Source: a virus
Taxonomy: Duplodnaviria; Caudoviricetes
Direction: 5' to 3' (one strand)
Virus record (IMG/VR): IMGVR_UViG_3300030372_003985
Location: 1 to 30,231 of that record
DNA length: 30,231 nucleotides
This document shows positions 2,160 to 23,684 of the stretch, one piece after another. The notes under the pieces were generated by a model. That model saw nothing but the letters and a program-made list of their open reading frames with translations. It had not been told where the DNA came from and ran no database searches. Made by a program: the position numbers and the translations under genes. How positions within the stretch are numbered: position 1 is the stretch's first letter; the number at the start of each line of letters is the position of its first letter.

Positions 2160-3134
2160 ATGCCTATACAATTTGGAAGAAATGCTTTTGTTAATGTAAG
2201 CAATACACCAGAATCAACTTATGGATCTGTAAGTGGTGCAACTTATAACGTATACAACAGAATCTTTTCTTGTTCATTACAGAAAACACAAACCAGAGAA
2301 CAAGTAACACACTTGTCGACTTCCAATGGTGCTTTCAGTCGTGCACAGTTTGCAGTTCAAACTGAAGTTTCTGGAACGGTAGAAATGCCTTTGATGTATG
2401 AAGGATCAGGTGTTTGGTTAAAATATGCACTTGGCGATTCTGCTACAACTGGAGCAGGACCATACAACCATGCTTACAACCCAAACACTACAAACCTTGC
2501 TTCTTTTTGTATGAAGTTTCAAAGGGGTACTGGTGGAATGGAGTTGTTCAAAGGTTTAATGGTTTCCACAATGACCATATCTTGTGCAGCCGGTGAAGAA
2601 GCCCGGTTGAGTTGTGATCTGATTGGTCAAGATTCAGATGCAAGAGCCGGATCAATATCTCCTACTTTTGGAACAGGTGCTCAAGTATTACACAATCAAG
2701 CCGATTCAACCGCTTTGAGATATACTCCAGATGGCGGATCTCTTGAACAATACACACTCCGATCTTTTGAGTTTACACTTGATAACAAACTTGAAGATAG
2801 AAGAACACTTGGATCATTGTTGACTTCTTCTCCTGCGGTTACTGATATCCGTGATGTTACTATATCTTGTGTAGCCGATCTTGAAGATGAAGCAATCTAC
2901 AACCATCAACTTGATGGAACATCTGGAACACTCCAAATTCATTTTCAAAGTGGTGCAGATGAATTAACAATCACTTTGTACAATGCTGTTTGTATGGAGT
3001 ACAGTGATGAAGTTAATTCAGTTGGTAGGTTGGAAAGATCTTTCACCTTTAAAGGCTTGGCTGATTCAACTGGATCGGGTGAAGCATGTAAGATTGAAGT
3101 TGTGAATGGTGATTCCTCTGCGGTAAGCAACTAA
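2160..3134 (+). CDS. Major tail tube protein
   Basis: 324 aa, Ser/Thr/Gly-rich, strong AAGGAG RBS, SFEFTLDNKLE motif, upstream of chaperones and tape measure. Confidence 0.8.
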   Translation: MPIQFGRNAFVNVSNTPESTYGSVSGATYNVYNRIFSCSLQKTQTREQVTHLSTSNGAFSRAQFAVQTEVSGTVEMPLMYEGSGVWLKYALGDSATTGAGPYNHAYNPNTTNLASFCMKFQRGTGGMELFKGLMVSTMTISCAAGEEARLSCDLIGQDSDARAGSISPTFGTGAQVLHNQADSTALRYTPDGGSLEQYTLRSFEFTLDNKLEDRRTLGSLLTSSPAVTDIRDVTISCVADLEDEAIYNHQLDGTSGTLQIHFQSGADELTITLYNAVCMEYSDEVNSVGRLERSFTFKGLADSTGSGEACKIEVVNGDSSAVSN

Positions 3135-9182: not shown

Positions 9183-10259
9183 ATGAAAAGTAAAAAGTTG
9201 AAGTCAAGAGATCTTCTTACAAAATACAAATCGGTTATAAAGTTTTATTTTGATAATGGATATGGAAGAACAAGAGCTACAAGGCACTTCAACAAGACCC
9301 AAAAAGAAACTGTTACTCTTTGGGTAATGGAAACAGCACTGAGATCGATAAGAAAAGAGGTCAAGTTAAAAGAAGAATCAGAATACGAAGAAGAAGATCT
9401 TGAAATTCTTGATATACTAGAACACAAGAAGAAGATTCAGCTTCGAAAGTTTAAGAAGCAAAAAGACAAGACTATTGTCTTGCTTCCAACTGATCCTTTT
9501 GGTTTGTGGTGCATTGGTGATCCTCATCTTGACAATGATGGTTGTGCTATTCTTGAATTGATGGCACAGATGAAGTTGGTCCAGGAATCAAAAGCAACAA
9601 TCTATTCTGGATGCGTTGGCGACTTAAATGATAACTGGATTGGTAGGCTTGGAATCTTGTATCAGAACACGAGCATCACGGCCGAGGATGGTTGGAAGTT
9701 GAGCAAGTGGTTTCTTTCACAATTGGAATGGTTATTTTTTGTTGGTGGCAATCATGATGCCTGGGCAAACAGAGCAGGCATCAATCCTCTACAATGGTTG
9801 TGTCAACAATGTAGCGTAAAAGTATATGGTGAAGATGAAGTCAGAGTTGAGATCCAGTGGATAGATGATCCAAGTCTTGAAGAAATAACCATCTGCGCAC
9901 GACATGACCACAAAGGCAGATCTTGGTTTCATCCTACTCATGGACCAAACAAAGAATCAATGCTTGATGGAAAAGGTCATGTTTTTATATCTGGTCATAT
10001 TCATTCTTGGGGATATCTCCAAACTGAACAACGACATGGAAGGGTAACCCATGCAATCAGAGTCAAGGGTTACAAACAGATTGATAGTTATGCAAAGAAG
10101 AATCAGTTCTATACACAACAACATGGATCAAGTTGTCTTATTGTAATCAATCCGAAAGACACAACCCCTTCAAGAATACAAGTCTTTTGGGATATTGAAG
10201 CGGGTGTTCAGTATTTGGAATACCTGAAAGTCAAGAACAAGAACATAACAAAGAAATAG
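9183..10259 (+). CDS. Calcineurin-like metallophosphoesterase with basic N-terminal domain
   Basis: Motif set GDPH, GDLND, GNHD and GHIH. Confidence 0.85.
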   Translation: MKSKKLKSRDLLTKYKSVIKFYFDNGYGRTRATRHFNKTQKETVTLWVMETALRSIRKEVKLKEESEYEEEDLEILDILEHKKKIQLRKFKKQKDKTIVLLPTDPFGLWCIGDPHLDNDGCAILELMAQMKLVQESKATIYSGCVGDLNDNWIGRLGILYQNTSITAEDGWKLSKWFLSQLEWLFFVGGNHDAWANRAGINPLQWLCQQCSVKVYGEDEVRVEIQWIDDPSLEEITICARHDHKGRSWFHPTHGPNKESMLDGKGHVFISGHIHSWGYLQTEQRHGRVTHAIRVKGYKQIDSYAKKNQFYTQQHGSSCLIVINPKDTTPSRIQVFWDIEAGVQYLEYLKVKNKNITKK

Positions 10260-15837: not shown

Positions 15838-16089
15838 TTATAGCCTAAAATAAATTACATGTAATGTATCCGATGTTTCTGGAACAAAGGAAGTTCTGAA
15901 GCGGGTACTACTGAGGAGGGTGATCTCGTTTCCTACTCTTTGAAGTATCCCATTCCAATATACAAGCAATGTACCTTTTTGAAAAGGTTTTATTTGAAAT
16001 TCGTTATTGGTTCCTGTGATTTGGGAACTTATATCTTCACTTACAAGTGATTCCGTTATTTGTCTTGTTTGTCTATATGATATGGGCAT
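15838..16089 (-). CDS. Small beta-sandwich virion protein related to the fibre C-terminus
   Basis: LLVYWNGILQ...SFVPETSDTLHVIY parallels ILVFRNGLLC...TFGAAPNGDKIIVKY. Confidence 0.65.
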   Translation of the reverse strand: MPISYRQTRQITESLVSEDISSQITGTNNEFQIKPFQKGTLLVYWNGILQRVGNEITLLSSTRFRTSFVPETSDTLHVIYFRL

Positions 16090-16091
16090 GG

Positions 16092-16490
16092 TTAGAACTC
16101 ATTCGCTTCATAAGTAACAAAGATCTCTGAGACGTTACAAGATCCAGAATCAACCTTGACGAAGATGTAAAATGTTTCAGTTTCACAATACAACAAGGCA
16201 TCAATATCTATTCCAACTGATCCTTCTGTTGTGGTAGTTAATCCATTGTCAATAGATCCAGATGTATTTTGAATTACTATTTTGTCTCCAGCTGCATCAG
16301 ATGTCATTTTAAATTCAATAGTTGAAGCTGATGATATAGATTGTAGTAGGAATCTTAGCGTTCCAACCCTTCCAAGAAAGTATTTACTACTAGAGTGTGA
16401 AAGTGTAACTGAAGTCTTTTTGTTGACATCAAAATTGGTTCCAACTGAAGTTATCGAACCATCTGCAACTGAAAAATTATATCTACCCAT
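16092..16490 (-). CDS. Putative small virion/decoration protein
   Basis: 132 aa, Ser/Thr-rich and beta-rich; first gene of the fibre operon. Confidence 0.6.
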   Translation of the reverse strand: MGRYNFSVADGSITSVGTNFDVNKKTSVTLSHSSSKYFLGRVGTLRFLLQSISSASTIEFKMTSDAAGDKIVIQNTSGSIDNGLTTTTEGSVGIDIDALLYCETETFYIFVKVDSGSCNVSEIFVTYEANEF

Positions 16491-16511
16491 CTTTTGATCC
16501 CGAAAAAGATG

Positions 16512-16545
16512 AAAAAAGGGTTGGAGCCAATGACAACCCCAACCC
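16512..16545 (-). terminator. Terminator/attenuator-like hairpin upstream of the fibre operon
   Basis: Minus strand reads GGGTTGGGGTT-GTCATT-GGCTCCAACCC-TTTTTT. Confidence 0.55.
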
Positions 16546-16798
16546 CCAAAAGGAAAAACGTGTCATAGAATAAACACCCTTGGATCGTATCATAAAAAAC
16601 CTATCAGTGCAAATGTATCCAAATGTAACTGATCACAAGTTTTACATAATAATATCGTGGAATACTTGCAATATTACAATATACTTGTTAAGTTTTTACA
16701 TGTAATGAAAACATGTTTTACTTACCGTAAAAACTTAACAAGTGACACAATGACAGGAACATACGTTTTAGAAAAATAAATATTAAAAATTATTATTA

Positions 16799-16823
16799 AT
16801 TTATTTCTTTAAAGCAAATGTTC
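16799..16823 (+). promoter_or_regulatory. Upstream motif copy C
   Basis: ATTTATTTCTTTAAAGCAAATGTTC, matching the copies at 3188 and 22170. Confidence 0.5.
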
Positions 16824-16840
16824 AAACAAAGAGGAAACAA

Positions 16841-17698
16841 ATGGAAAATAAAGTCATGAGTAAAATAACAATCACCGAAAAGATAAAGTCTCTTCCAAGA
16901 GATGAGCGTTTATTCTGTGCCTTATTCAATAAATATCGTTGGTTAAGTGAACCCAATAAGCATCCTCTCACAACTTATCGAGGATTCGAAAATCCGAATA
17001 TGCTGGATCTTGAGTTTGAACTGATCGAGATTGATAACTATTTGATGAACCATGCAAGGCAAAAAAACACCAGTCGAATATGGTATAAAGATTCTTGGGT
17101 TGAAGGAATCCAAAATTGGTTGAAGAAGACCAAGAGGGTCAAGGTCAATCCTGATCTCTTTGTGTCAATAGATGATATGGTCGAGAAAGACGAAGAGGAA
17201 AAAGAAGAACTTGAAGGTTTAGAGAAAGGTTTTCAAGAAGCAATTAATTGCTCTTGGGAAGACTTCTATTGTAGCGATTGGGATGATGTTCTTGCTTACA
17301 TAGTTGGAGATCTGAATCAAGCAGAACTTATAAGTGTTTGGTGGGGTCCAGGCTCTGATTATATCCGAAGCCGAGTAATGAAAAGCAAAGATAAAATCAA
17401 ACACCATAATGAATTCTGTGGTTGGATCTACTCCCTAAAGAATGTTCCTGATATCGTTGGAACTTATATCGTGGGGATTTGGGCTGGAGAATATGATGTT
17501 GAAATCCTTGGTGAGGACTATCCACCAAAAAAAGAACTGGTTCAAGTTGAATCAAAAGAACAAGAACCACAAGAAGAAAAGGTTTGGGGTACCATTCCAG
17601 AAGATATGATTCCAGATCCTGAGAAAGACGCAGTTGTTTCTTTTACCGAACTAAAGGAACAGTTGATCAACAGAATGCAAATGAAGAGAGGAGAATAG
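16841..17698 (+). CDS. Hypothetical protein, possible replication initiator-related
   Basis: GAGGA RBS. DLEFEL..IDNYL...W...IQNWLKK loosely resembles phage replication-organiser domains; adjacent to the largest AT-rich gap. Confidence 0.4.
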   Translation: MENKVMSKITITEKIKSLPRDERLFCALFNKYRWLSEPNKHPLTTYRGFENPNMLDLEFELIEIDNYLMNHARQKNTSRIWYKDSWVEGIQNWLKKTKRVKVNPDLFVSIDDMVEKDEEEKEELEGLEKGFQEAINCSWEDFYCSDWDDVLAYIVGDLNQAELISVWWGPGSDYIRSRVMKSKDKIKHHNEFCGWIYSLKNVPDIVGTYIVGIWAGEYDVEILGEDYPPKKELVQVESKEQEPQEEKVWGTIPEDMIPDPEKDAVVSFTELKEQLINRMQMKRGE

Positions 17699-17699
17699 A

Positions 17700-18131
17700 A
17701 TGTTAATTCCATGCCGTCATTGTGGCAAGTTGGGAAACAAACCAACTGCCACAAACATAAAAAATATGGTTTGCGATCATTGTGGTGCGCAAACCATGAA
17801 AACCGAACCAAACAAGATAATTACGTCTTGTGAAGAGTGCGGGCTTGCTCAGCAAATACCAATTGATCAATATGATTACTGGAGATGTAAAAGTTGTGGT
17901 GCTAAGCAGAATCATCCAATCAAACGCCCGATCAATGGTGCTGGTTATGGGTTTAGTGTCGAAGTCTCGAAGACTACGATTAATTTACCTAATGATCTTA
18001 TGAAAGCACTTGATGATCATCTTGTTCAGATCAATCATTGGGAGGGTCTAAAAAAAAATCGACCGGCAAAAGTAAAGAGAGGTCAATTTATCAGAATGCT
18101 CTTGAAACAACACTTCGGATTCAAACAATAA
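17700..18131 (+). CDS. Double zinc-ribbon plus ribbon-helix-helix-like DNA-binding protein
   Basis: Four CxxC motifs; KTTINLPNDLMKALD...RGQFIRMLL is an RHH pattern. Confidence 0.6.
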   Translation: MLIPCRHCGKLGNKPTATNIKNMVCDHCGAQTMKTEPNKIITSCEECGLAQQIPIDQYDYWRCKSCGAKQNHPIKRPINGAGYGFSVEVSKTTINLPNDLMKALDDHLVQINHWEGLKKNRPAKVKRGQFIRMLLKQHFGFKQ

Positions 18132-18139
18132 ATTGAGAG

Positions 18140-18300
18140 GGTGTGGTTGAAGGTGAGATCGTTGGGCCTACTCCAACCACAATGGCCCATCACACCATAA
18201 CACAAAAATAAAAAAAAGTCGGGTTTGCTTATCAATCACTTTCAAAAACTTGGCCCGTTGTTCCCCAAAAAAATTAAAACCCGACTCCCGGTTGATCCGG
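18140..18300 (-). ncRNA. Candidate structured RNA/regulatory element
   Basis: Interleaved helices 18142-52/18171-81 and 18163-68/18184-89, plus a 10-bp stem 18217-26/18277-86. G-U pairing favours the minus strand. Confidence 0.35.
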
Positions 18301-18329
18301 AATTAGAAACATAACTGATAAAAAAGAAA

Positions 18330-18545
18330 ATGAAAACACAAAAAGATCAATTTGAAAAATATAGAAGAATGGCACGACATCTATTTCATCAAAGTTTTGG
18401 AAAAAAATCTTATGTTGTTGTTTGTTCAGAGCCTTTATATTTTGGCAAAAGAAACAAGAAGTTCAGAGTGTTTGAGAAAAGCACATACACCAGTCATTCA
18501 AAAATAAAACGAAAATACCCCTATGAGGTCTTTAGATATGAGTAA
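18330..18545 (+). CDS. Basic hypothetical protein
   Basis: 71 aa; its end overlaps the next gene start. Confidence 0.6.
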   Translation: MKTQKDQFEKYRRMARHLFHQSFGKKSYVVVCSEPLYFGKRNKKFRVFEKSTYTSHSKIKRKYPYEVFRYE

Positions 18546-19176
18546 AAAGAAACAACCCGCTGCGATCTATATGAACATTGACGATCTATATCCAGCACCT
18601 GACAACCCAAGAGTCAATGACCATGTTGTTGATAAAGTGGTGCGATCAATTCAACTTCATGGATTCGCCGCGCCAATCGTTGCAAACCTTCAAGGAGAAA
18701 TCTTGGCCGGTCATACAAGATGGAAAGCCGGCAAGAAGATCGGTATGGAAAAAGTTCCAGTTCGTCAAATGGATTTAACAGGTGATCAAGCAAGATTGTA
18801 TCGAATAGCCGACAACAAACTTTCTGAGTTTGCTGATTGGGATGAGGGTATGTTGAAAGAACAATTGGCGAACCTTGAAAAGGCTTTTCCGGTTGATATT
18901 GCTGATCTCTTTACTGATGATGAGTTGGAAGAAATCTTAACATCAGCAGATCAATTATGGAGTGATGCTCTTGACGCACTTCCTGAAGGGGAAAAATCCC
19001 CTTACCAGCAAATGACATTCTCATTACATGATATGCAGGCAGAAGTTATTCAGGAGTCAATTAAATTAAGTAATAAAATTCATTCGTATGCAGACTTTGA
19101 AAACACAAATAAAAACGCAAACGCTTTAACTCGAATTTGTGAAGTCTTCTTATCTTTGGAGCGTAAAAATGGGTGA
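18538..19176 (+). CDS. ParB/Srx-like N-terminal domain protein
   Basis: NPRVN, SIQLHGF..PIV, ILAGHTRWKA and YRIADNKL motifs. ATG 18538 preferred. Confidence 0.88.
   Translation: MSKKKQPAAIYMNIDDLYPAPDNPRVNDHVVDKVVRSIQLHGFAAPIVANLQGEILAGHTRWKAGKKIGMEKVPVRQMDLTGDQARLYRIADNKLSEFADWDEGMLKEQLANLEKAFPVDIADLFTDDELEEILTSADQLWSDALDALPEGEKSPYQQMTFSLHDMQAEVIQESIKLSNKIHSYADFENTNKNANALTRICEVFLSLERKNG
18557..18929 (+). repeat. ParB-domain duplication (second copy 20071-20443)
   Basis: Colinear 373-bp diverged direct repeat at offset 1514, with mostly synonymous differences. Confidence 0.95.
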
Positions 19177-19981
19177 GGCAAAAAAAATTATTGTTAAACC
19201 AATTTCTTCAAAAAGAGCAAGAGATATTGTGAAAAAGTTTCATTATAGTGGAAAAGTGTGTAACAATAGCAACTTCCATCTTGGTGTTTTTTATAAGGGA
19301 GTTCTTGAAGGTGCAATTCAATTTGGTCCGCCAATTGATAAGAGAAAGTTAATTCATCTTGTGCCCGGAACAAAATGGTCTCAAATGTTAGAGTTAAATA
19401 GAATGGCTTTTAGTGATGTTCTTCCCCGTAACTCTGAGTCAAGAGCTATGGGTTATGTTTTTAAAATGTTAAAAAAACACAGGCCAGATATAAAGTGGGT
19501 TGTTTCGTTTTCAGACGCTACTCAATGTGGGGATGGTGTAATTTATCGTGCATCTGGATTTATTTTAAGTGCAATAAAAAGAAGTGATAATTTAGCCAAG
19601 CTACCCAATGGGGATGTTATACATAAAATGACGTTGCATTCAAATCCATTGAAAAAACGAGCAGAGTTAGGTAACAAATCTTTTTATGATGTGACAGGGG
19701 GGAAGTACAATTGGAAGTTATATTGTAAAATTGCAAATGCTGTTATTTTGCCGGGTTACCAATTGCGATATATTAAATTTATTGATGCTTCTTGGGAAAA
19801 AAAATTGACAGTAACACCAATTCCTTTTAATGAAATACCTACACATGTAAAAATGTATAAAGGAAAAAAAATAATGCGGTTGCCTGATAAGGAGGCCTCT
19901 GGGGACCACCCAGAGAAAGGCGGTGCGAACCCGACCCAGCCGCTCCAATTTTTACAGGTGTCTAATGAAAAGAAAAAATAA
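19169..19981 (+). CDS. mom: Mom-family (GNAT-fold) DNA adenine modification protein
   Basis: HYS, GAIQFG, LELNRM, PRNSESR and VSFSD...G.G.IYRASGF match the Mu Mom-like family. ATG 19169 follows GGAG. Confidence 0.8.
   Translation: MGEAKKIIVKPISSKRARDIVKKFHYSGKVCNNSNFHLGVFYKGVLEGAIQFGPPIDKRKLIHLVPGTKWSQMLELNRMAFSDVLPRNSESRAMGYVFKMLKKHRPDIKWVVSFSDATQCGDGVIYRASGFILSAIKRSDNLAKLPNGDVIHKMTLHSNPLKKRAELGNKSFYDVTGGKYNWKLYCKIANAVILPGYQLRYIKFIDASWEKKLTVTPIPFNEIPTHVKMYKGKKIMRLPDKEASGDHPEKGGANPTQPLQFLQVSNEKKK
19876..19947 (+). tRNA. Non-canonical tRNA-Gly(ACC)-like element inside the mom 3' end
   Basis: Acceptor stem GCGGTTG/CAGCCGC with T discriminator and CCA. Anticodon arm CTCTGG-GGACCAC-CCAGAG. T-arm GGCGG-TGCGAAC-CCG(A)CC. 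Short D-arm CCT/AGG. Confidence 0.72.
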
Positions 19982-21713
19982 AAGTAATCCAAAGAAATCG
20001 TATCTTGAAAGCCGGCCGGAATCAGTAAAAAGATCCATATCGGCCATCAAGCAAGGAGCAACCATTGAATCCGCCGCGATCTACATGAGCATTGACGATC
20101 TATATCCAGCACCTGACAACCCAAGAGTTAACGATCATGTTGTTGATAAAGTAGTTCGGTCAATTCAGCTTCATGGGTTTGCATCACCAATTGTTGCAAA
20201 CCTTCAAGGTGAAATCTTAGCCGGTCATACCAGGTGGAAAGCAGCCAAGAAGATCAACATGGAAAAAGTTCCAGTTCGCCAAATGGATCTAACAGGCGAC
20301 CAGGCGAAGTTGTACAGAATAGCCGACAATAAGCTTTCTGAGTTTGCTGATTGGGATGAAGATATGCTCAAAGAACAACTTGCAGATCTTGAGAAGGCTT
20401 TTCCTGTTGACGTTGCTGATCTCTTTACTGATGATGAGTTGGAGGAGTTGTTGAGTGACAAAGAGGATTTTCAACTTGAAGAAGAGCCCGATTATTCAAA
20501 CGAGAATGAACACGATCATTTTGATCAACCAACTGAATCAAGATTCAAGACTGGTCATGTTGAGGAAGTAGGAAGACAAAAAATAATTTGTGGTGATTGT
20601 ATCGAAGTTCTTAAGTCAATGCCCGATAACTCAGTTGATGCAATCGTTTGTGATCCTCCTTATCAGATTGTGTTCATGGGTAAAGACTGGGATCAAGAGT
20701 TTGATACTGAAGAATGGGCCCGTCAATGTTTGCGAGTACTCAAGCCCGGTGGACACTTGATCGCCTTTGCAGCCACAAGAACAATTCACAAGATTATGTA
20801 TTCACTCGAGAATCAAGGATTTGAAATTCGGGATCTGATAAGTTGGATTTATTTTTCTGGCTTTCCAAAAAGTCATAATGTATCAAAAGCAATTGATAAA
20901 CACTTTGGAGCAGAAAGAGAAGTTGTTGGAATAAAAGAAAGGAATAATAGTCAAGTATTTACAGAAATAGGTCAATTGAAAGCTGAAAAATTTATATACT
21001 CAAAACCAGCCACAAAAGAAGCGATCAAATACGATGGTTGGGGTTCAGCACTGAAACCAGCCCAAGAGCCAGCCGTTCTTTGTAGAAAGCCACTTGAAAA
21101 AGGTTTGTCTATTGCGGAGAATGTTCTGAAGTGGGGGACTGGTGGATTGAATATTGATGCTTGTAGGTTTGGTTATGGTGATCCTTGTTGGGTTGGTGAT
21201 ACAAGTGAGCGCAAACCAATAGAAGCGAAAATAAATCCAAATGCAAAACATAAGAATATTGATGGTAGAATGCAAAAAAACACCAGTGATCTAATTATTG
21301 ATAATTGGTCACCAAAAGGAAGATGGCCCGCAAATATATATCAGTGTCCAAAAGCATCAAGAGGTGAAAGAGAAGAAGGGTTGGAAGATCATAAAAGCAG
21401 GTGGAATTCTGCTGTTGAACATGCCGGAGTTGGCACAAAGGCTCTTAATAATCCAAGAGCCGGTGCTGGGAGAACAGCAAATGAAGTTAAGAACTTTCAT
21501 CCTACTGTTAAGCCGGTGAAATTAATGAGTTGGTTGGTTCGGTTGGTAACTCCGATCGATGGAATAGTAGTTGATACCTTTTGCGGATCTGGAACAACTC
21601 TTGTAGCTACTGAACTCGAAGGAAAATATCAAGGAGTAGGGATTGAGATGAATCCGGAATACTGTGATATTATTTTTGGGAGGGTGAAACATGCCAGCAA
21701 AAAAGAAAAGTAA
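19965..21713 (+). CDS. Chimeric TerS-N / ParB-like / beta-class N6A-N4C DNA methyltransferase
   Basis: DPPY precedes HPTVKP and DTFCGSGTT. Contains the ParB repeat and an N-terminal copy of terS. ATG 19965 preferred over 19923. Confidence 0.88.
   Translation: MKRKNKSNPKKSYLESRPESVKRSISAIKQGATIESAAIYMSIDDLYPAPDNPRVNDHVVDKVVRSIQLHGFASPIVANLQGEILAGHTRWKAAKKINMEKVPVRQMDLTGDQAKLYRIADNKLSEFADWDEDMLKEQLADLEKAFPVDVADLFTDDELEELLSDKEDFQLEEEPDYSNENEHDHFDQPTESRFKTGHVEEVGRQKIICGDCIEVLKSMPDNSVDAIVCDPPYQIVFMGKDWDQEFDTEEWARQCLRVLKPGGHLIAFAATRTIHKIMYSLENQGFEIRDLISWIYFSGFPKSHNVSKAIDKHFGAEREVVGIKERNNSQVFTEIGQLKAEKFIYSKPATKEAIKYDGWGSALKPAQEPAVLCRKPLEKGLSIAENVLKWGTGGLNIDACRFGYGDPCWVGDTSERKPIEAKINPNAKHKNIDGRMQKNTSDLIIDNWSPKGRWPANIYQCPKASRGEREEGLEDHKSRWNSAVEHAGVGTKALNNPRAGAGRTANEVKNFHPTVKPVKLMSWLVRLVTPIDGIVVDTFCGSGTTLVATELEGKYQGVGIEMNPEYCDIIFGRVKHASKKEK
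19981..20077 (+). repeat. Diverged copy of the terS 5' end (21707-21803)
   Basis: KSNPKKSYLESRPESVKR(S/F)ISAIKQGATIESAA is present in both proteins. Confidence 0.95.
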
Positions 21714-22146
21714 TCCAAAGAAGTCATACCTTGAATCAAGACCGGAATCAGTGAAAAGATTTATATCGGCTATCAAGCAAGGTGCAACCATTGAATCCGC
21801 TGCAGGATTCGCTGGTCTTTCTGTTTCAGTAATTTACCACTATCTCTCAAAAGGTAGGCAAGAGGAAAAAGGGATATACAAAACATTCTTCGATGAGTAC
21901 AAAAAGGCCAAGGGTTCTTTGATGTTGAAACATCTGATGATCATACATAAAGCAGCCGAGAATGATTGGCGGGCATCAAAATATATTCTCGAATCACAGT
22001 TCGGAATGGTGCCACAATACAAACCAGAGATCGAGATCAATATCAATTTTGAACAAGCAGACACAAAAGACTTGATAGAACAACTGAAGAAAACAGATGA
22101 TCTCTTGAACCTTAAAGGTCCGATCATCGACATCGAAGAAGAATAA
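21691..22146 (+). CDS. terS: Terminase small subunit
   Basis: HTH-like IESAAGFAGLSVSVIYHYL and DWRASKYILE motif; directly upstream of terL; GGAGG RBS. Confidence 0.75.
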   Translation: MPAKKKSNPKKSYLESRPESVKRFISAIKQGATIESAAGFAGLSVSVIYHYLSKGRQEEKGIYKTFFDEYKKAKGSLMLKHLMIIHKAAENDWRASKYILESQFGMVPQYKPEIEININFEQADTKDLIEQLKKTDDLLNLKGPIIDIEEE

Positions 22147-22169
22147 AATATAAATAAATAAATATTGAA

Positions 22170-22194
22170 ATTTATCTATCTAAAACAAATGTTC
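22170..22194 (+). promoter_or_regulatory. Upstream motif copy B
   Basis: ATTTATCTATCTAAAACAAATGTTC before terL. Confidence 0.5.
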
Positions 22195-22208
22195 CTGAGA
22201 ATGTCATT

Positions 22209-23684
22209 ATGACAAAAAAGCAGACCGATCTTCGTGACCAGGTCAAGTTGAGAAACCAACTTCTTGAAATACAGAAGAACACACCATTGGCTCTTGCGAA
22301 GTTGTGGACCCCTCATTGTCATCGGTTTGATGGTTTGGCCTCGAAGTCAAAGAGAAAGATAGGTTGTGGCAAACCTATGGAAAGAGTTAAGGGAAATATC
22401 TGGGAGTGTTCCACATGCAACATTCAAGAACAAAGAACAAGCCAACAAGATCCCTTCTTTGATCTTGGCCAAGAAGCTACAAGTGTGTTTGGTGGAAACA
22501 GAGCAGGAAAATCTGAGATCGGTGCAATGTTTTCAGTTGCCACTTGTGCGGGCTCGGATGAATGGTGGGTCCGTCAATGGTTGGAGAACAATAATTTGCC
22601 AATCGATATTGTTCCAAAGAAACCAAGTGATGTTATGGTGAGTGCATTATCATATTCTGATGCGCTTGCTTACGTAAGACCAAAGATCACAAAATATCTT
22701 CCAGCTGGTTGTAAGTTCAAAAACTGGAATAGTCACAATCGGGCCAAAGTTATTTTGCCAAACGGCGGATCGATCATCTCAATGAGTGCTGATTCCGGTC
22801 GTAAGAAATATCAAGGAATTGGAAATATCAAACTGGCTTGGTTGGATGAAGAACACCCACAAGACATATTCGAGGAGTGTTTGCTTCGTGTGGTTGATGC
22901 ACGTGGTCAGGTACTATTGACAATGACGCCTCTTTTGGGAATCACTTGGCCAAATGAATTGTTTGTGAACACTGAGAAAACCGAATCATTCAAGTATCAC
23001 TTTCTTTCTGGTCTTGATAATCCATGGGTAAGTTCTGTCAAGATGAGGAAAGCAACCGATCACCTTTCTGAAGCATCTCAACAATCAAGATTATATGGTA
23101 GGTTCACAAACCAAACAGGATTGATCTATCCTGAACTTGATAAGAAGATTCATATTATCAAACCTTTTGAGATCCCTAAAGAATGGCCCCGGTATCTTTC
23201 TATTGATTTTGGAGTTGTTAATCCTTTTGCCTGTTTGGTAATTGTTCACGATTCAAAAGACAATACAATCTATGTTGTTGATGAGTACTTCAAAAAGAAC
23301 CAAACCACGATCTACAATGGAAACGAGATCAACAGAAGATTCAAGGATAAGTATGGACCTTTTGAATATGTCGTTTGTGATCCTGAGGATAAAAATGGAA
23401 GAATGCTTCTTACTCGACATTGTGGATTGTACAATAAACCTGCGCCAAAAAGTATGGGGGTTGTGAATACGATAAATCTTTTGAAAGAACGGTTGAAGCT
23501 ACAAGCAGATAACAAACCAAGGCTTTTAATTTTTGATCATTGCAAAGAGTTGATCCGTGAATTCAGATTGTACTCTTGGAAAAAGAACAACCAGAAAGAC
23601 CAGCCCAAAAAAGAGAATGATCATGGTCTTGATGCGCTTAGGTATTTGGTTGCTTTTCTTTATAAAATGAGCTTACATATTTAA
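22209..23684 (+). CDS. terL: Terminase large subunit
   Basis: Walker A GGNRAGKS, Walker B AWLDE, MTP coupling motif, nuclease SIDFG and NDHGLDALRY. Confidence 0.95.
   Translation: MTKKQTDLRDQVKLRNQLLEIQKNTPLALAKLWTPHCHRFDGLASKSKRKIGCGKPMERVKGNIWECSTCNIQEQRTSQQDPFFDLGQEATSVFGGNRAGKSEIGAMFSVATCAGSDEWWVRQWLENNNLPIDIVPKKPSDVMVSALSYSDALAYVRPKITKYLPAGCKFKNWNSHNRAKVILPNGGSIISMSADSGRKKYQGIGNIKLAWLDEEHPQDIFEECLLRVVDARGQVLLTMTPLLGITWPNELFVNTEKTESFKYHFLSGLDNPWVSSVKMRKATDHLSEASQQSRLYGRFTNQTGLIYPELDKKIHIIKPFEIPKEWPRYLSIDFGVVNPFACLVIVHDSKDNTIYVVDEYFKKNQTTIYNGNEINRRFKDKYGPFEYVVCDPEDKNGRMLLTRHCGLYNKPAPKSMGVVNTINLLKERLKLQADNKPRLLIFDHCKELIREFRLYSWKKNNQKDQPKKENDHGLDALRYLVAFLYKMSLHI

What the first reader, a model, noticed from the sequence alone, without database searches (positions are those of the whole stretch)
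19876..19947. A non-canonical tRNA-Gly-like RNA hidden in the 3' end of a Mom-family DNA modification gene
Seen: a 72-nt GC-rich cloverleaf in otherwise AT-rich coding DNA. It has a 7-bp acceptor stem GCGGUUG/CAGCCGC, U discriminator, encoded CCA (19945-47), anticodon ACC (19905-07) and a T-arm GGCGG-UGCGAAC-CCG(A)CC. Established: G1-C72, C2-G71, U73, C35 and C36 are bacterial GlyRS identity elements, and all are present. Ribosome-related features are altered: no U8, G instead of U33, short D-arm, GUGC instead of GUUC, and a bulged A in the T-stem region that EF-Tu reads. The Mu Mom product is a glycinamide-type adenine adduct. From memory, to be verified: Mom was reported to use glycyl-tRNA-Gly as donor, and staphylococcal non-proteinogenic tRNA-Gly species also carry GUGC. 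Inference: this is an enzyme plus co-encoded RNA cofactor, charged by host GlyRS but withheld from translation, supplying glycine for DNA hypermodification. The C-terminal peptide MRLPDKEASG...GGANPTQPLQ would be a by-product of the RNA. Excising the RNA would also remove the mom stop codon, which could couple processing to expression.
Basis: partly seen in the sequence, partly recalled or inferred. Interest (0 to 1): 0.96.

Follow-up and report, generated by a model that had tools for sequence, protein, structure and literature searches.

The report
Phage Mom gene with private tRNA-Gly
A marine phage hides, inside the end of its gene for a Mom-type DNA-disguising enzyme, a conserved but deformed glycine-tRNA look-alike that sits beside Mom genes in many other phages and is likely the enzyme's own glycine carrier, kept away from protein synthesis.

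Summary
Confirmed. Window 19876-19947 is a tRNA-Gly-like cloverleaf inside the 3' end of a Mom gene (PF25680; fold matches Mu Mom 8bv8). ARAGORN and Rfam miss it; a model built without it finds it exactly (51 bits, next hit 9). It belongs to a covarying RNA family: 155 of 176 related Mom loci carry it. Searched from the RNA side, elements with the bulged T-stem lie beside mom in 111 of 113 loci with full flanks, against 1 of 59 for ordinary tRNA-Gly ends and 2 of 54 for the same T-arm without the bulge. Glycine identity (G1-C72, C2-G71, U73, C35, C36) is kept; decoding features drift (ACC is the commonest anticodon; U33, U8 and the D-arm are often lost). The RNA sits 3', 5', antisense or in tandem. 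Best reading (0.65): a processed, glycylated donor for Mom, hidden from EF-Tu. Expression, charging and transfer are untested; Mu and 11 other cultured Mom phages lack the RNA; Mu's essential R151 is replaced. Correction: the stop codon lies 31 nt beyond the CCA, not inside the RNA. Not found in print; this scan noted such pairs before on other DNA.

The parts
19876..19947 (+). tRNA-Gly-like RNA (72 nt), short-D-arm form, anticodon ACC, encoded CCA
   Evidence: R1 65.9 bits (window in seed); independent R2 51.4 bits
19876..19882 (+). acceptor stem 5' strand (G1, C2, G3)
   Evidence: pairs with 19937-43; positions 3-7 covary
19883..19895 (+). reduced D region: 3-bp hairpin starting directly at position 8, no U8-A9 linker
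   Evidence: short D region in 44 of 149 Mom-first elements
19897..19915 (+). anticodon arm: 7-bp stem, loop GACCA; ACC at 19905-07, G33, G32-C38 paired
   Evidence: C35 C36 in 119 of 119 seven-base loops, 32-38 paired in 115 of 119
19919..19936 (+). 18-nt T-arm with GUGC loop and bulged A (19934) between pairs 51-63 and 50-64, the family's diagnostic mark
   Evidence: bulged A in 134 of 149; kept in untranslated copies, 15 of 17 after the stop and 7 of 7 antisense
19937..19947 (+). acceptor 3' strand, discriminator U73 (19944) and CCA (19945-47)
   Evidence: U73 in 118 of 118 descriptor hits that did not ask for it; CCA in 86 of 118
19169..19981 (+). mom: Mom-family GNAT, 270 aa; residues 236-260 are read through the RNA
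   Evidence: PF25680 E 4e-50; phrog_1384 E 7e-47; 8bv8 E 2e-23; Foldseek E 4.5e-18; pLDDT under 50 at 239-255 and 263-270
18523..19176 (+). ParB-like partner gene, stop overlapping the mom start
   Evidence: PF02195 E 2e-7; a ParB-like gene lies within 1.5 kb upstream in 103 of 109 related Mom loci
19965..21713 (+). downstream chimeric gene: copy of terS 5' end, copy of the ParB domain, N6/N4 DNA methyltransferase (ATG 19965; longest ORF starts 19923)
   Evidence: 86% DNA identity to both source genes
21691..23684 (+). terminase small (21691-22146) and large (22209-23684) subunits; the module heads the packaging operon

Best explanation
The phage carries a conserved glycine-tRNA look-alike inside its Mom gene, and this RNA is likely cut out of the late transcript, loaded with glycine by the host synthetase and used by Mom as a private donor to modify phage DNA. 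Shown: the RNA structure, its glycine identity set, its drift at decoding positions and its two-way linkage to mom. Known for Mu only: Mom transfers glycine from Gly-tRNA-Gly to adenine N6 in dsDNA (PMC13219725). Inferred: (1) transcription with the ParB-mom-terminase operon; (2) release by RNase P and 3' trimming at the encoded CCA, or CCA addition where it is not encoded; (3) charging by bacterial GlyRS; (4) poor EF-Tu binding because an A is bulged between two of the three EF-Tu specificity pairs, and poor decoding because of the closed 32-38 pair and lost U33; (5) Mom therefore draws on a pool that the ribosome does not drain. In this phage a transcript cut at the RNA's 5' end would leave mom without a stop codon, so each transcript would give either enzyme or cofactor.
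For: Covariation: 96.4% of cells paired, 18 of 21 pairs with two-sided changes, 0 of 500 shuffles reach the score, slid controls 36-45% (rows chosen for pairing, but the D stem was not demanded and is 83% paired). In the RNA-first set, where the pattern left acceptor 66-69 free and fixed no 5' strand, 98.5% paired (fitted to the model). Identity: among 149 non-redundant Mom-first elements G1-C72 149, C2-G71 149, U73 148, CC in the loop 149; these are the bacterial glycine determinants (PMC9976931). Drift: ACC 66, UCC 42, CCC 10, GCC 1 of 119; U33 39 of 119, against U33 59 of 63 and ACC 0 of 63 in ordinary viral tRNA-Gly; N34 changes at least 57 times on a 179-row tree. Gly-tRNA-ACC is described as universally absent from genomes (bioRxiv 10.64898/2026.05.15.725136). 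EF-Tu reads pairs 49-65, 50-64, 51-63 (PMC3239215). Linkage: Mom-first 155 of 176 clusters (16 without, 5 truncated); RNA-first with both flanks of 1 kb or more 54 of 54 (GUGC) and 57 of 59 (GUUC), controls 1 of 59 and 2 of 54. Acts like a trans gene: 8 antisense, 17 after the stop, 6 distant, 2 upstream without overlap, two tandem intergenic copies in cultured phage Y8A. Active-site H58, Y59, R111, S124, D149, Y159 of Mu are kept.
Against: No RNA data of any kind. Mu Mom works with all three E. coli tRNA-Gly, so a private donor is not chemically required; 12 of 13 cultured Mom phages and 11 of 11 Mu-like contigs lack the RNA in the DNA fetched, as do 16 close relatives. Mu R151, essential in vivo, aligns to T118 or Q119 here, so activity and target base are unproven. 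The window RNA lacks a normal G10 and D stem and has G50-C64, whereas Thermus GlyRS also reads G10 and C50-G64. Engineered Gly-tRNA-ACC works in E. coli, so ACC alone does not exclude translation. Overlap with the mom frame is common (120 of 139 sense 3' copies; 40 of 41 5' copies), which a pure trans donor does not need. 50 of 149 lack an encoded CCA.
Confidence: 0.65

Rival explanations
1. Cis control of a toxic gene: the cloverleaf is a tRNA mimic in mom mRNA that is bound by Mom or GlyRS, or cut by RNase P, mainly to limit Mom output; glycine donation is absent or secondary.
For: Mom is lethal when overexpressed and tightly regulated in Mu (PMC7261163). The RNA overlaps the mom frame at either end: 120 of 139 sense 3' copies and 40 of 41 5' copies, often holding the start codon.
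Against: Antisense, distant, post-stop and tandem intergenic copies keep the same features. U73 and CCA matter only at a free 3' end. The 5' arrangement changes only 3 times on a 117-row tree, so its shared frame can be descent; an independent 5' move (L001, L241) does not overlap mom.
Confidence: 0.15
2. Buffer or decoy: the RNA is a glycine tRNA that refills the translational pool drained by Mom, or soaks up or resists host anti-tRNA defences, without being Mom's substrate.
For: Some family members are close to canonical (ARAGORN of 194; Rfam tRNA reaches threshold on 3 of the elements in 10 loci). ACC could read GGU, the commonest glycine codon of this phage (243 of 494).
Against: Ordinary phage tRNA-Gly genes, which would refill the pool, are not linked to mom (1 of 59). 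The linked form has the T-stem bulge, closed anticodon loop and frequent loss of U33, U8 and the D stem.
Confidence: 0.11
3. Dual coding: the conserved element is (also) a functional peptide, GGxxPTxxL, at either end of Mom.
For: 68 of 120 top homologues end in the motif; 81 of 94 read-through cases use one frame although 37 and 54 are open in the other two; the 5' class uses the same frame.
Against: Every conserved residue is forced by a paired or tRNA-conserved base; silent positions covary (51-63 pair intact in 79 of 79) and free codons vary widely; the tail is predicted disordered and is lost or reframed repeatedly.
Confidence: 0.05
4. Integration-site remnant, decayed tRNA or chance fold.
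For: tRNA-Gly 3' ends are common attachment sites, and several control loci look like that; the lone fold has z -1.95.
Against: Full-length covarying cloverleaf, fixed bulge not seen in host tRNA-Gly, two-way linkage to mom; no integrase among the 25 window proteins scanned.
Confidence: 0.01

Closest known systems
Bacteriophage Mu Mom with host Gly-tRNA-Gly (PF25680; PDB 8bv8; Silva et al. 2026, PMC13219725)
   Same: Family, fold (TM 0.59/0.70, 32% identity), six of the seven listed active-site residues.
   Different: Mu has no such RNA and uses any host isoacceptor; R151 is replaced by a TQCGDG motif; ParB-like partner and position before terminase instead of com-mom at the genome end.
Non-proteinogenic tRNA-Gly of Staphylococcus with Fem transferases (PMC12256121, PMC4574755, PMC9976931)
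   Same: GlyRS-type identity with an altered T-stem and elbow, serving a GNAT-fold transferase outside the ribosome.
   Different: Those are cellular, all UCC, use pair substitutions and lie in tRNA/rRNA operons; this one is viral, uses a bulge, has a free N34 (mostly A), often loses the D stem, overlaps its enzyme's coding frame, and the predicted acceptor is DNA.
Canonical tRNA (Rfam RF00005) and phage-encoded tRNA-Gly
   Same: Cloverleaf, acceptor identity, CCA; near-canonical family members show descent from tRNA-Gly.
   Different: The window copy is not detected by ARAGORN or Rfam; ordinary phage tRNA-Gly are not linked to mom.

Membership tests
Mom (PF25680) | Profile match above the curated cut-off | tested here: met
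   170.7 bits, cut-off 27.1
Mom (PF25680) | GNAT fold of Mu Mom | tested here: met
   Model pLDDT 86.5; 8bv8 best hit, E 4.5e-18, next entry 1e-5
Mom (PF25680) | H58, Y59, R111, S124, D149, Y159 | tested here: met
   H25, Y26, R78, S91, D116, Y126
Mom (PF25680) | R151, essential in Mu | tested here: not met
   T118 or Q119 by alignment; also absent in 38 distant RNA-linked Moms and several cultured ones, so it is a Mu-clade residue, not a family-wide one
Mom (PF25680) | Forms 6-NcmdA from Gly-tRNA-Gly | not testable with these tools
   needs nucleoside LC-MS
Canonical translational tRNA-Gly | Bacterial glycine identity G1-C72, C2-G71, U73, C35, C36 | tested here: met
Canonical translational tRNA-Gly | U8, 4-bp D stem, U33, open 7-nt anticodon loop, uninterrupted 5-bp T stem, TΨC loop | tested here: not met
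   all altered in the window copy; ARAGORN and RF00005 negative
Non-proteinogenic tRNA-Gly (staphylococcal type) | Altered EF-Tu contact pairs in the T-stem | tested here: inconclusive
   G49-C65, G50-C64, C51-G63 with a bulge between the last two; the EF-Tu table read has no bulge data
Non-proteinogenic tRNA-Gly (staphylococcal type) | UCC anticodon, chromosomal operon, Fem transferase partner | tested here: not met
   ACC, phage, Mom partner: works like, is not a member
Non-proteinogenic tRNA-Gly (staphylococcal type) | Charged by GlyRS, weakly bound by EF-Tu | not testable with these tools
   needs biochemistry

The most novel reading that the evidence does not exclude
A widespread, unannotated class of phage RNA cofactors: tRNA-Gly-derived glycine carriers, marked by a T-stem bulge, that are written into the coding sequence of their own DNA-modifying enzyme. 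Their Mom partners, which have lost Mu's R151, prefer or require this RNA, forming an enzyme-tRNA pair orthogonal to the ribosome, and excision of the RNA from the mom message sets the ratio of enzyme to cofactor.
Probability: 0.35. Interest if true: 0.93.

Novelty: new variant of a known kind. Interest (0 to 1): 0.82.

Why it matters
Mom was only just shown to take glycine from charged tRNA, and the authors ascribe it to host tRNA. If many phages supply their own ribosome-excluded donor, then DNA hypermodification has a dedicated RNA cofactor, phage tRNA catalogues miss a whole family (ARAGORN of 194), and the conserved tail on thousands of annotated Mom proteins is an RNA read as protein. 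It offers a natural EF-Tu-evading tRNA design and a direct test in a cultured phage (Psychrobacter phage vB_PmaS_Y8A). It may also explain why some Mom homologues would fail in E. coli screens when expressed without their RNA (inference).

Tried and rejected
No RNA holder listed for 19100-20100, so expression is untested. BLASTN of the 72 nt against 50,697 phage records gave only chance hits. Promoter and terminator scans of 16000-22500 are at shuffle level (19 against 17.4; 7 against 4.5). PF25680 search of the 4 records behind mom-less RNA loci found nothing, but they are 19-83% complete and the control never rang. R1 hits in three bacterial genomes whose mom lacks the RNA were looked at: two are ordinary tRNA-Gly, one is a canonical-looking tRNA printed only in part, one could not be judged from the slice printed; R1 scores ordinary tRNA-Gly at 35-51 bits, so it is not fully specific. 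Five of six minus-strand descriptor hits were false (no U73 or CCA). GUGC in staphylococcal tRNAs not confirmed. No protein complex job was run: the tool cannot take RNA. A beta-clamp-like motif in 5'-class N-termini (motif recalled, from no call) was not pursued; the window lacks it. Trees are FastTree, with weak deep support, and the second is sampled RNA-first, so no order of gain or loss is claimed.

Full report
Setting. The window is a whole 30,231-nt phage record with direct terminal repeats, 100% complete by CheckV. DNA runs that hold the stretch are marine. The host is unknown. The finding lies in a co-oriented run: ParB-like gene 18523-19176, mom 19169-19981, a ParB-methyltransferase chimera, then terminase, portal, protease and capsid.

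Observation. The 72-nt cloverleaf is present as described. Alone it is only modestly stable (z -1.95), and ARAGORN, Rfam and RF00005 miss it. A covariance model built from 82 other sequences, none closer than 74%, returns exactly 19876-19947 at 51.4 bits, the next hit in the genome scoring 9 (those rows had been aligned with model R1, whose seed included the window). The mom stop codon is 31 nt beyond the CCA.

The enzyme. PF25680 at E 4e-50; Mu Mom is the only PDB sequence match and the best fold match. H58, Y59, R111, S124, D149 and Y159 of Mu are kept; R151, essential in Mu, is not. Silva et al. (PMC13219725; I read the abstract, sections 9, 10, 13, 14, 38 and term searches; of four supplements one was searched, three could not be read) show that Mu Mom moves glycine from Gly-tRNA-Gly to adenine N6, accepts all three E. 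coli isoacceptors and rejects Gly-tRNA-Ala. The terms tRNA-like, cloverleaf and encoded tRNA do not occur in its main text.

The family, from the Mom side. Four scans gave 245 loci (three were cut at the best 80), 216 with the window after removing duplicates. A descriptor demanding only GC...GC ends and paired stems gave 118 plus-strand hits: U73 in 118, loop-centre CC in 109 (the other 9 took a shifted register), CCA in 86, the bulged T-arm in 117. I aligned 84 of them, chosen for clean register and diversity, and built R1. Pair counts: 96.4% paired, 18 of 21 pairs with two-sided changes, slid controls 36-45%. Of 176 Mom clusters at 90% identity, 155 have the RNA, 16 do not, 5 are truncated; 139 lie just 3' on the sense strand, 8 antisense, 2 just 5', 6 further off. 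The 16 negatives stay negative with filters off; they fall in a clade dominated by gut Firmicute prophages, and one keeps a decayed remnant. Among 149 non-redundant elements: G1-C72 149, C2-G71 149, U73 148, CCA 99, bulged A 134, U8 49, short D region 44; in 119 seven-base loops ACC 66, UCC 42, CCC 10, GCC 1, U33 39, 32-38 paired 115. Ordinary viral tRNA-Gly: U33 59 of 63, 32-38 paired 23 of 63, ACC 0 of 63. The first two pairs were demanded when the seed was chosen, so their invariance is not an independent result.

From the RNA side. Earlier notes of this scan reported odd tRNA-Gly of T4-like phages that mostly occur without mom, so I tested the reverse link. Patterns for the bulged T-arm plus 3' end were scanned in IMG/VR (80 of 119 and 80 of 120 loci had flanks). 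A Mom gene is nearby in 65 of 71 and 65 of 69 unique loci, and in 54 of 54 and 57 of 59 with both flanks of at least 1 kb. Of the 42 weaker neighbours in the first set, 41 pass the Pfam Mom cut-off and one is a truncated fragment. Controls: ordinary tRNA-Gly ends 1 of 78 (1 of 59 with full flanks); the same T-arm without the bulged A, 2 of 54. The two full-flank exceptions are L404, near a weak DruA-like hit (E 3e-4, below cut-off), and L440, where the RNA sits between ParB and a terminase-like gene without mom. The patterns came from Mom-linked elements, so this tests this family, not every odd tRNA-Gly.

Limits of the link. The RNA implies Mom, but Mom does not imply the RNA: 12 of 13 cultured phages with Mom-like genes (Mu among them) and 11 of 11 Mu-like contigs tested (of 44 fetched) lack it in the fetched flanks. 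The exception, Psychrobacter phage Y8A, has two unannotated tandem copies between the mom stop and terS.

The peptide. 68 of 120 top homologues end in GGxxPTxxL. It is the T-arm and acceptor read in one frame: silent positions are fixed or covary (51-63 pair intact in 79 of 79), free codons vary, and the bulge persists in untranslated copies. The tail has pLDDT under 50 and changes state at least 35 times on the tree. Unexplained: 81 of 94 read-through copies use this frame, and 40 of 41 copies at the 5' end of distant moms overlap the ORF in the same frame. Descent can explain the frame (3 changes of arrangement on 117 rows), but the persistent overlap keeps cis control alive as a rival.

Mechanism. 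The kept positions are the bacterial GlyRS determinants (PMC9976931, passages). The altered ones are those used by EF-Tu (PMC3239215, listing and passages) and in decoding (general knowledge). Gly-tRNA-ACC is called universally absent, though functional when engineered (bioRxiv 10.64898/2026.05.15.725136, passages). Staphylococci keep EF-Tu-evading tRNA-Gly for Fem transferases (PMC12256121, PMC4574755, passages). I therefore read the RNA as a processed private glycine donor for Mom (0.65), ahead of cis control of a lethal gene (0.15; toxicity from PMC7261163, passages), buffer or decoy (0.11), functional peptide (0.05) and remnant (0.01). RNase P release, CCA addition and tmRNA rescue of the stop-less message are inferred from general knowledge; none was tested.

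Novelty. Nine library searches found no description of a tRNA-like RNA beside mom; passages of the Mom preprint, a jumbo-phage review and a Rhodococcus phage paper do not mention one. The library lacks most subscription journals. Rfam has no such family; only near-canonical members reach RF00005. This scan has noted similar pairs on other genomes; look-ups by sequence and by place returned nothing. Verdict: a real, widespread, undescribed RNA family tied to Mom; new variant of the dedicated aminoacyl-tRNA donor theme; interest 0.82.

Noticed in passing
window 19965-21713: Chimeric gene: about 102 nt 86% identical to the terS 5' end, 379 nt 86% identical to the upstream ParB-like gene, then an N6/N4 methyltransferase; it looks like a recent insertion between the RNA and terS, so this phage has both Mom and a methyltransferase.
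   Followed up: partly
window 18523-19176: A ParB-like gene precedes mom in 103 of 109 related loci; it may be a third part of the modification module, next to the packaging genes.
   Followed up: partly
L372, L381, L388, L428 and other 5'-class loci: Where the RNA overlaps the mom start, its anticodon arm reads as QLSF, QLTF or LPLFQ, resembling a sliding-clamp motif (recalled); many of these have 8-nt anticodon loops.
   Followed up: no
L404:626-1804 and 3001-3073: A bulged RNA lies 1.2 kb from a weak DruA-like GNAT rather than a Mom; the RNA may serve other GNAT families.
   Followed up: partly
L440:3001-3069: RNA between a short ParB-like gene and a terminase-like gene with mom missing (record 46% complete).
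   Followed up: partly
L107:3734-3793: Decayed copy lacking the anticodon arm after a mom in a gut prophage clade where the RNA is often lost.
   Followed up: partly
L089, L097, L102, L124, L179, L039, L186, L178: Eight of 176 loci hold two Mom ORFs; in L097 and L124 a single RNA lies about 820 nt downstream of the first.
   Followed up: no
L003, L005, L025, L045, L051, L053, L180: RNA inverted relative to mom, so it needs its own promoter; these copies are near-canonical yet keep the bulge.
   Followed up: partly
window 19869 (run X5, loose end): One contig of a related phage diverges just after the MYKG codons into a stop, apparently without the RNA at this place; single contig, weak.
   Followed up: no
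window 9183-10259: Gene among the tail genes matching a PHROG labelled DNA repair exonuclease (E 5e-28), with no Pfam hit.
   Followed up: no
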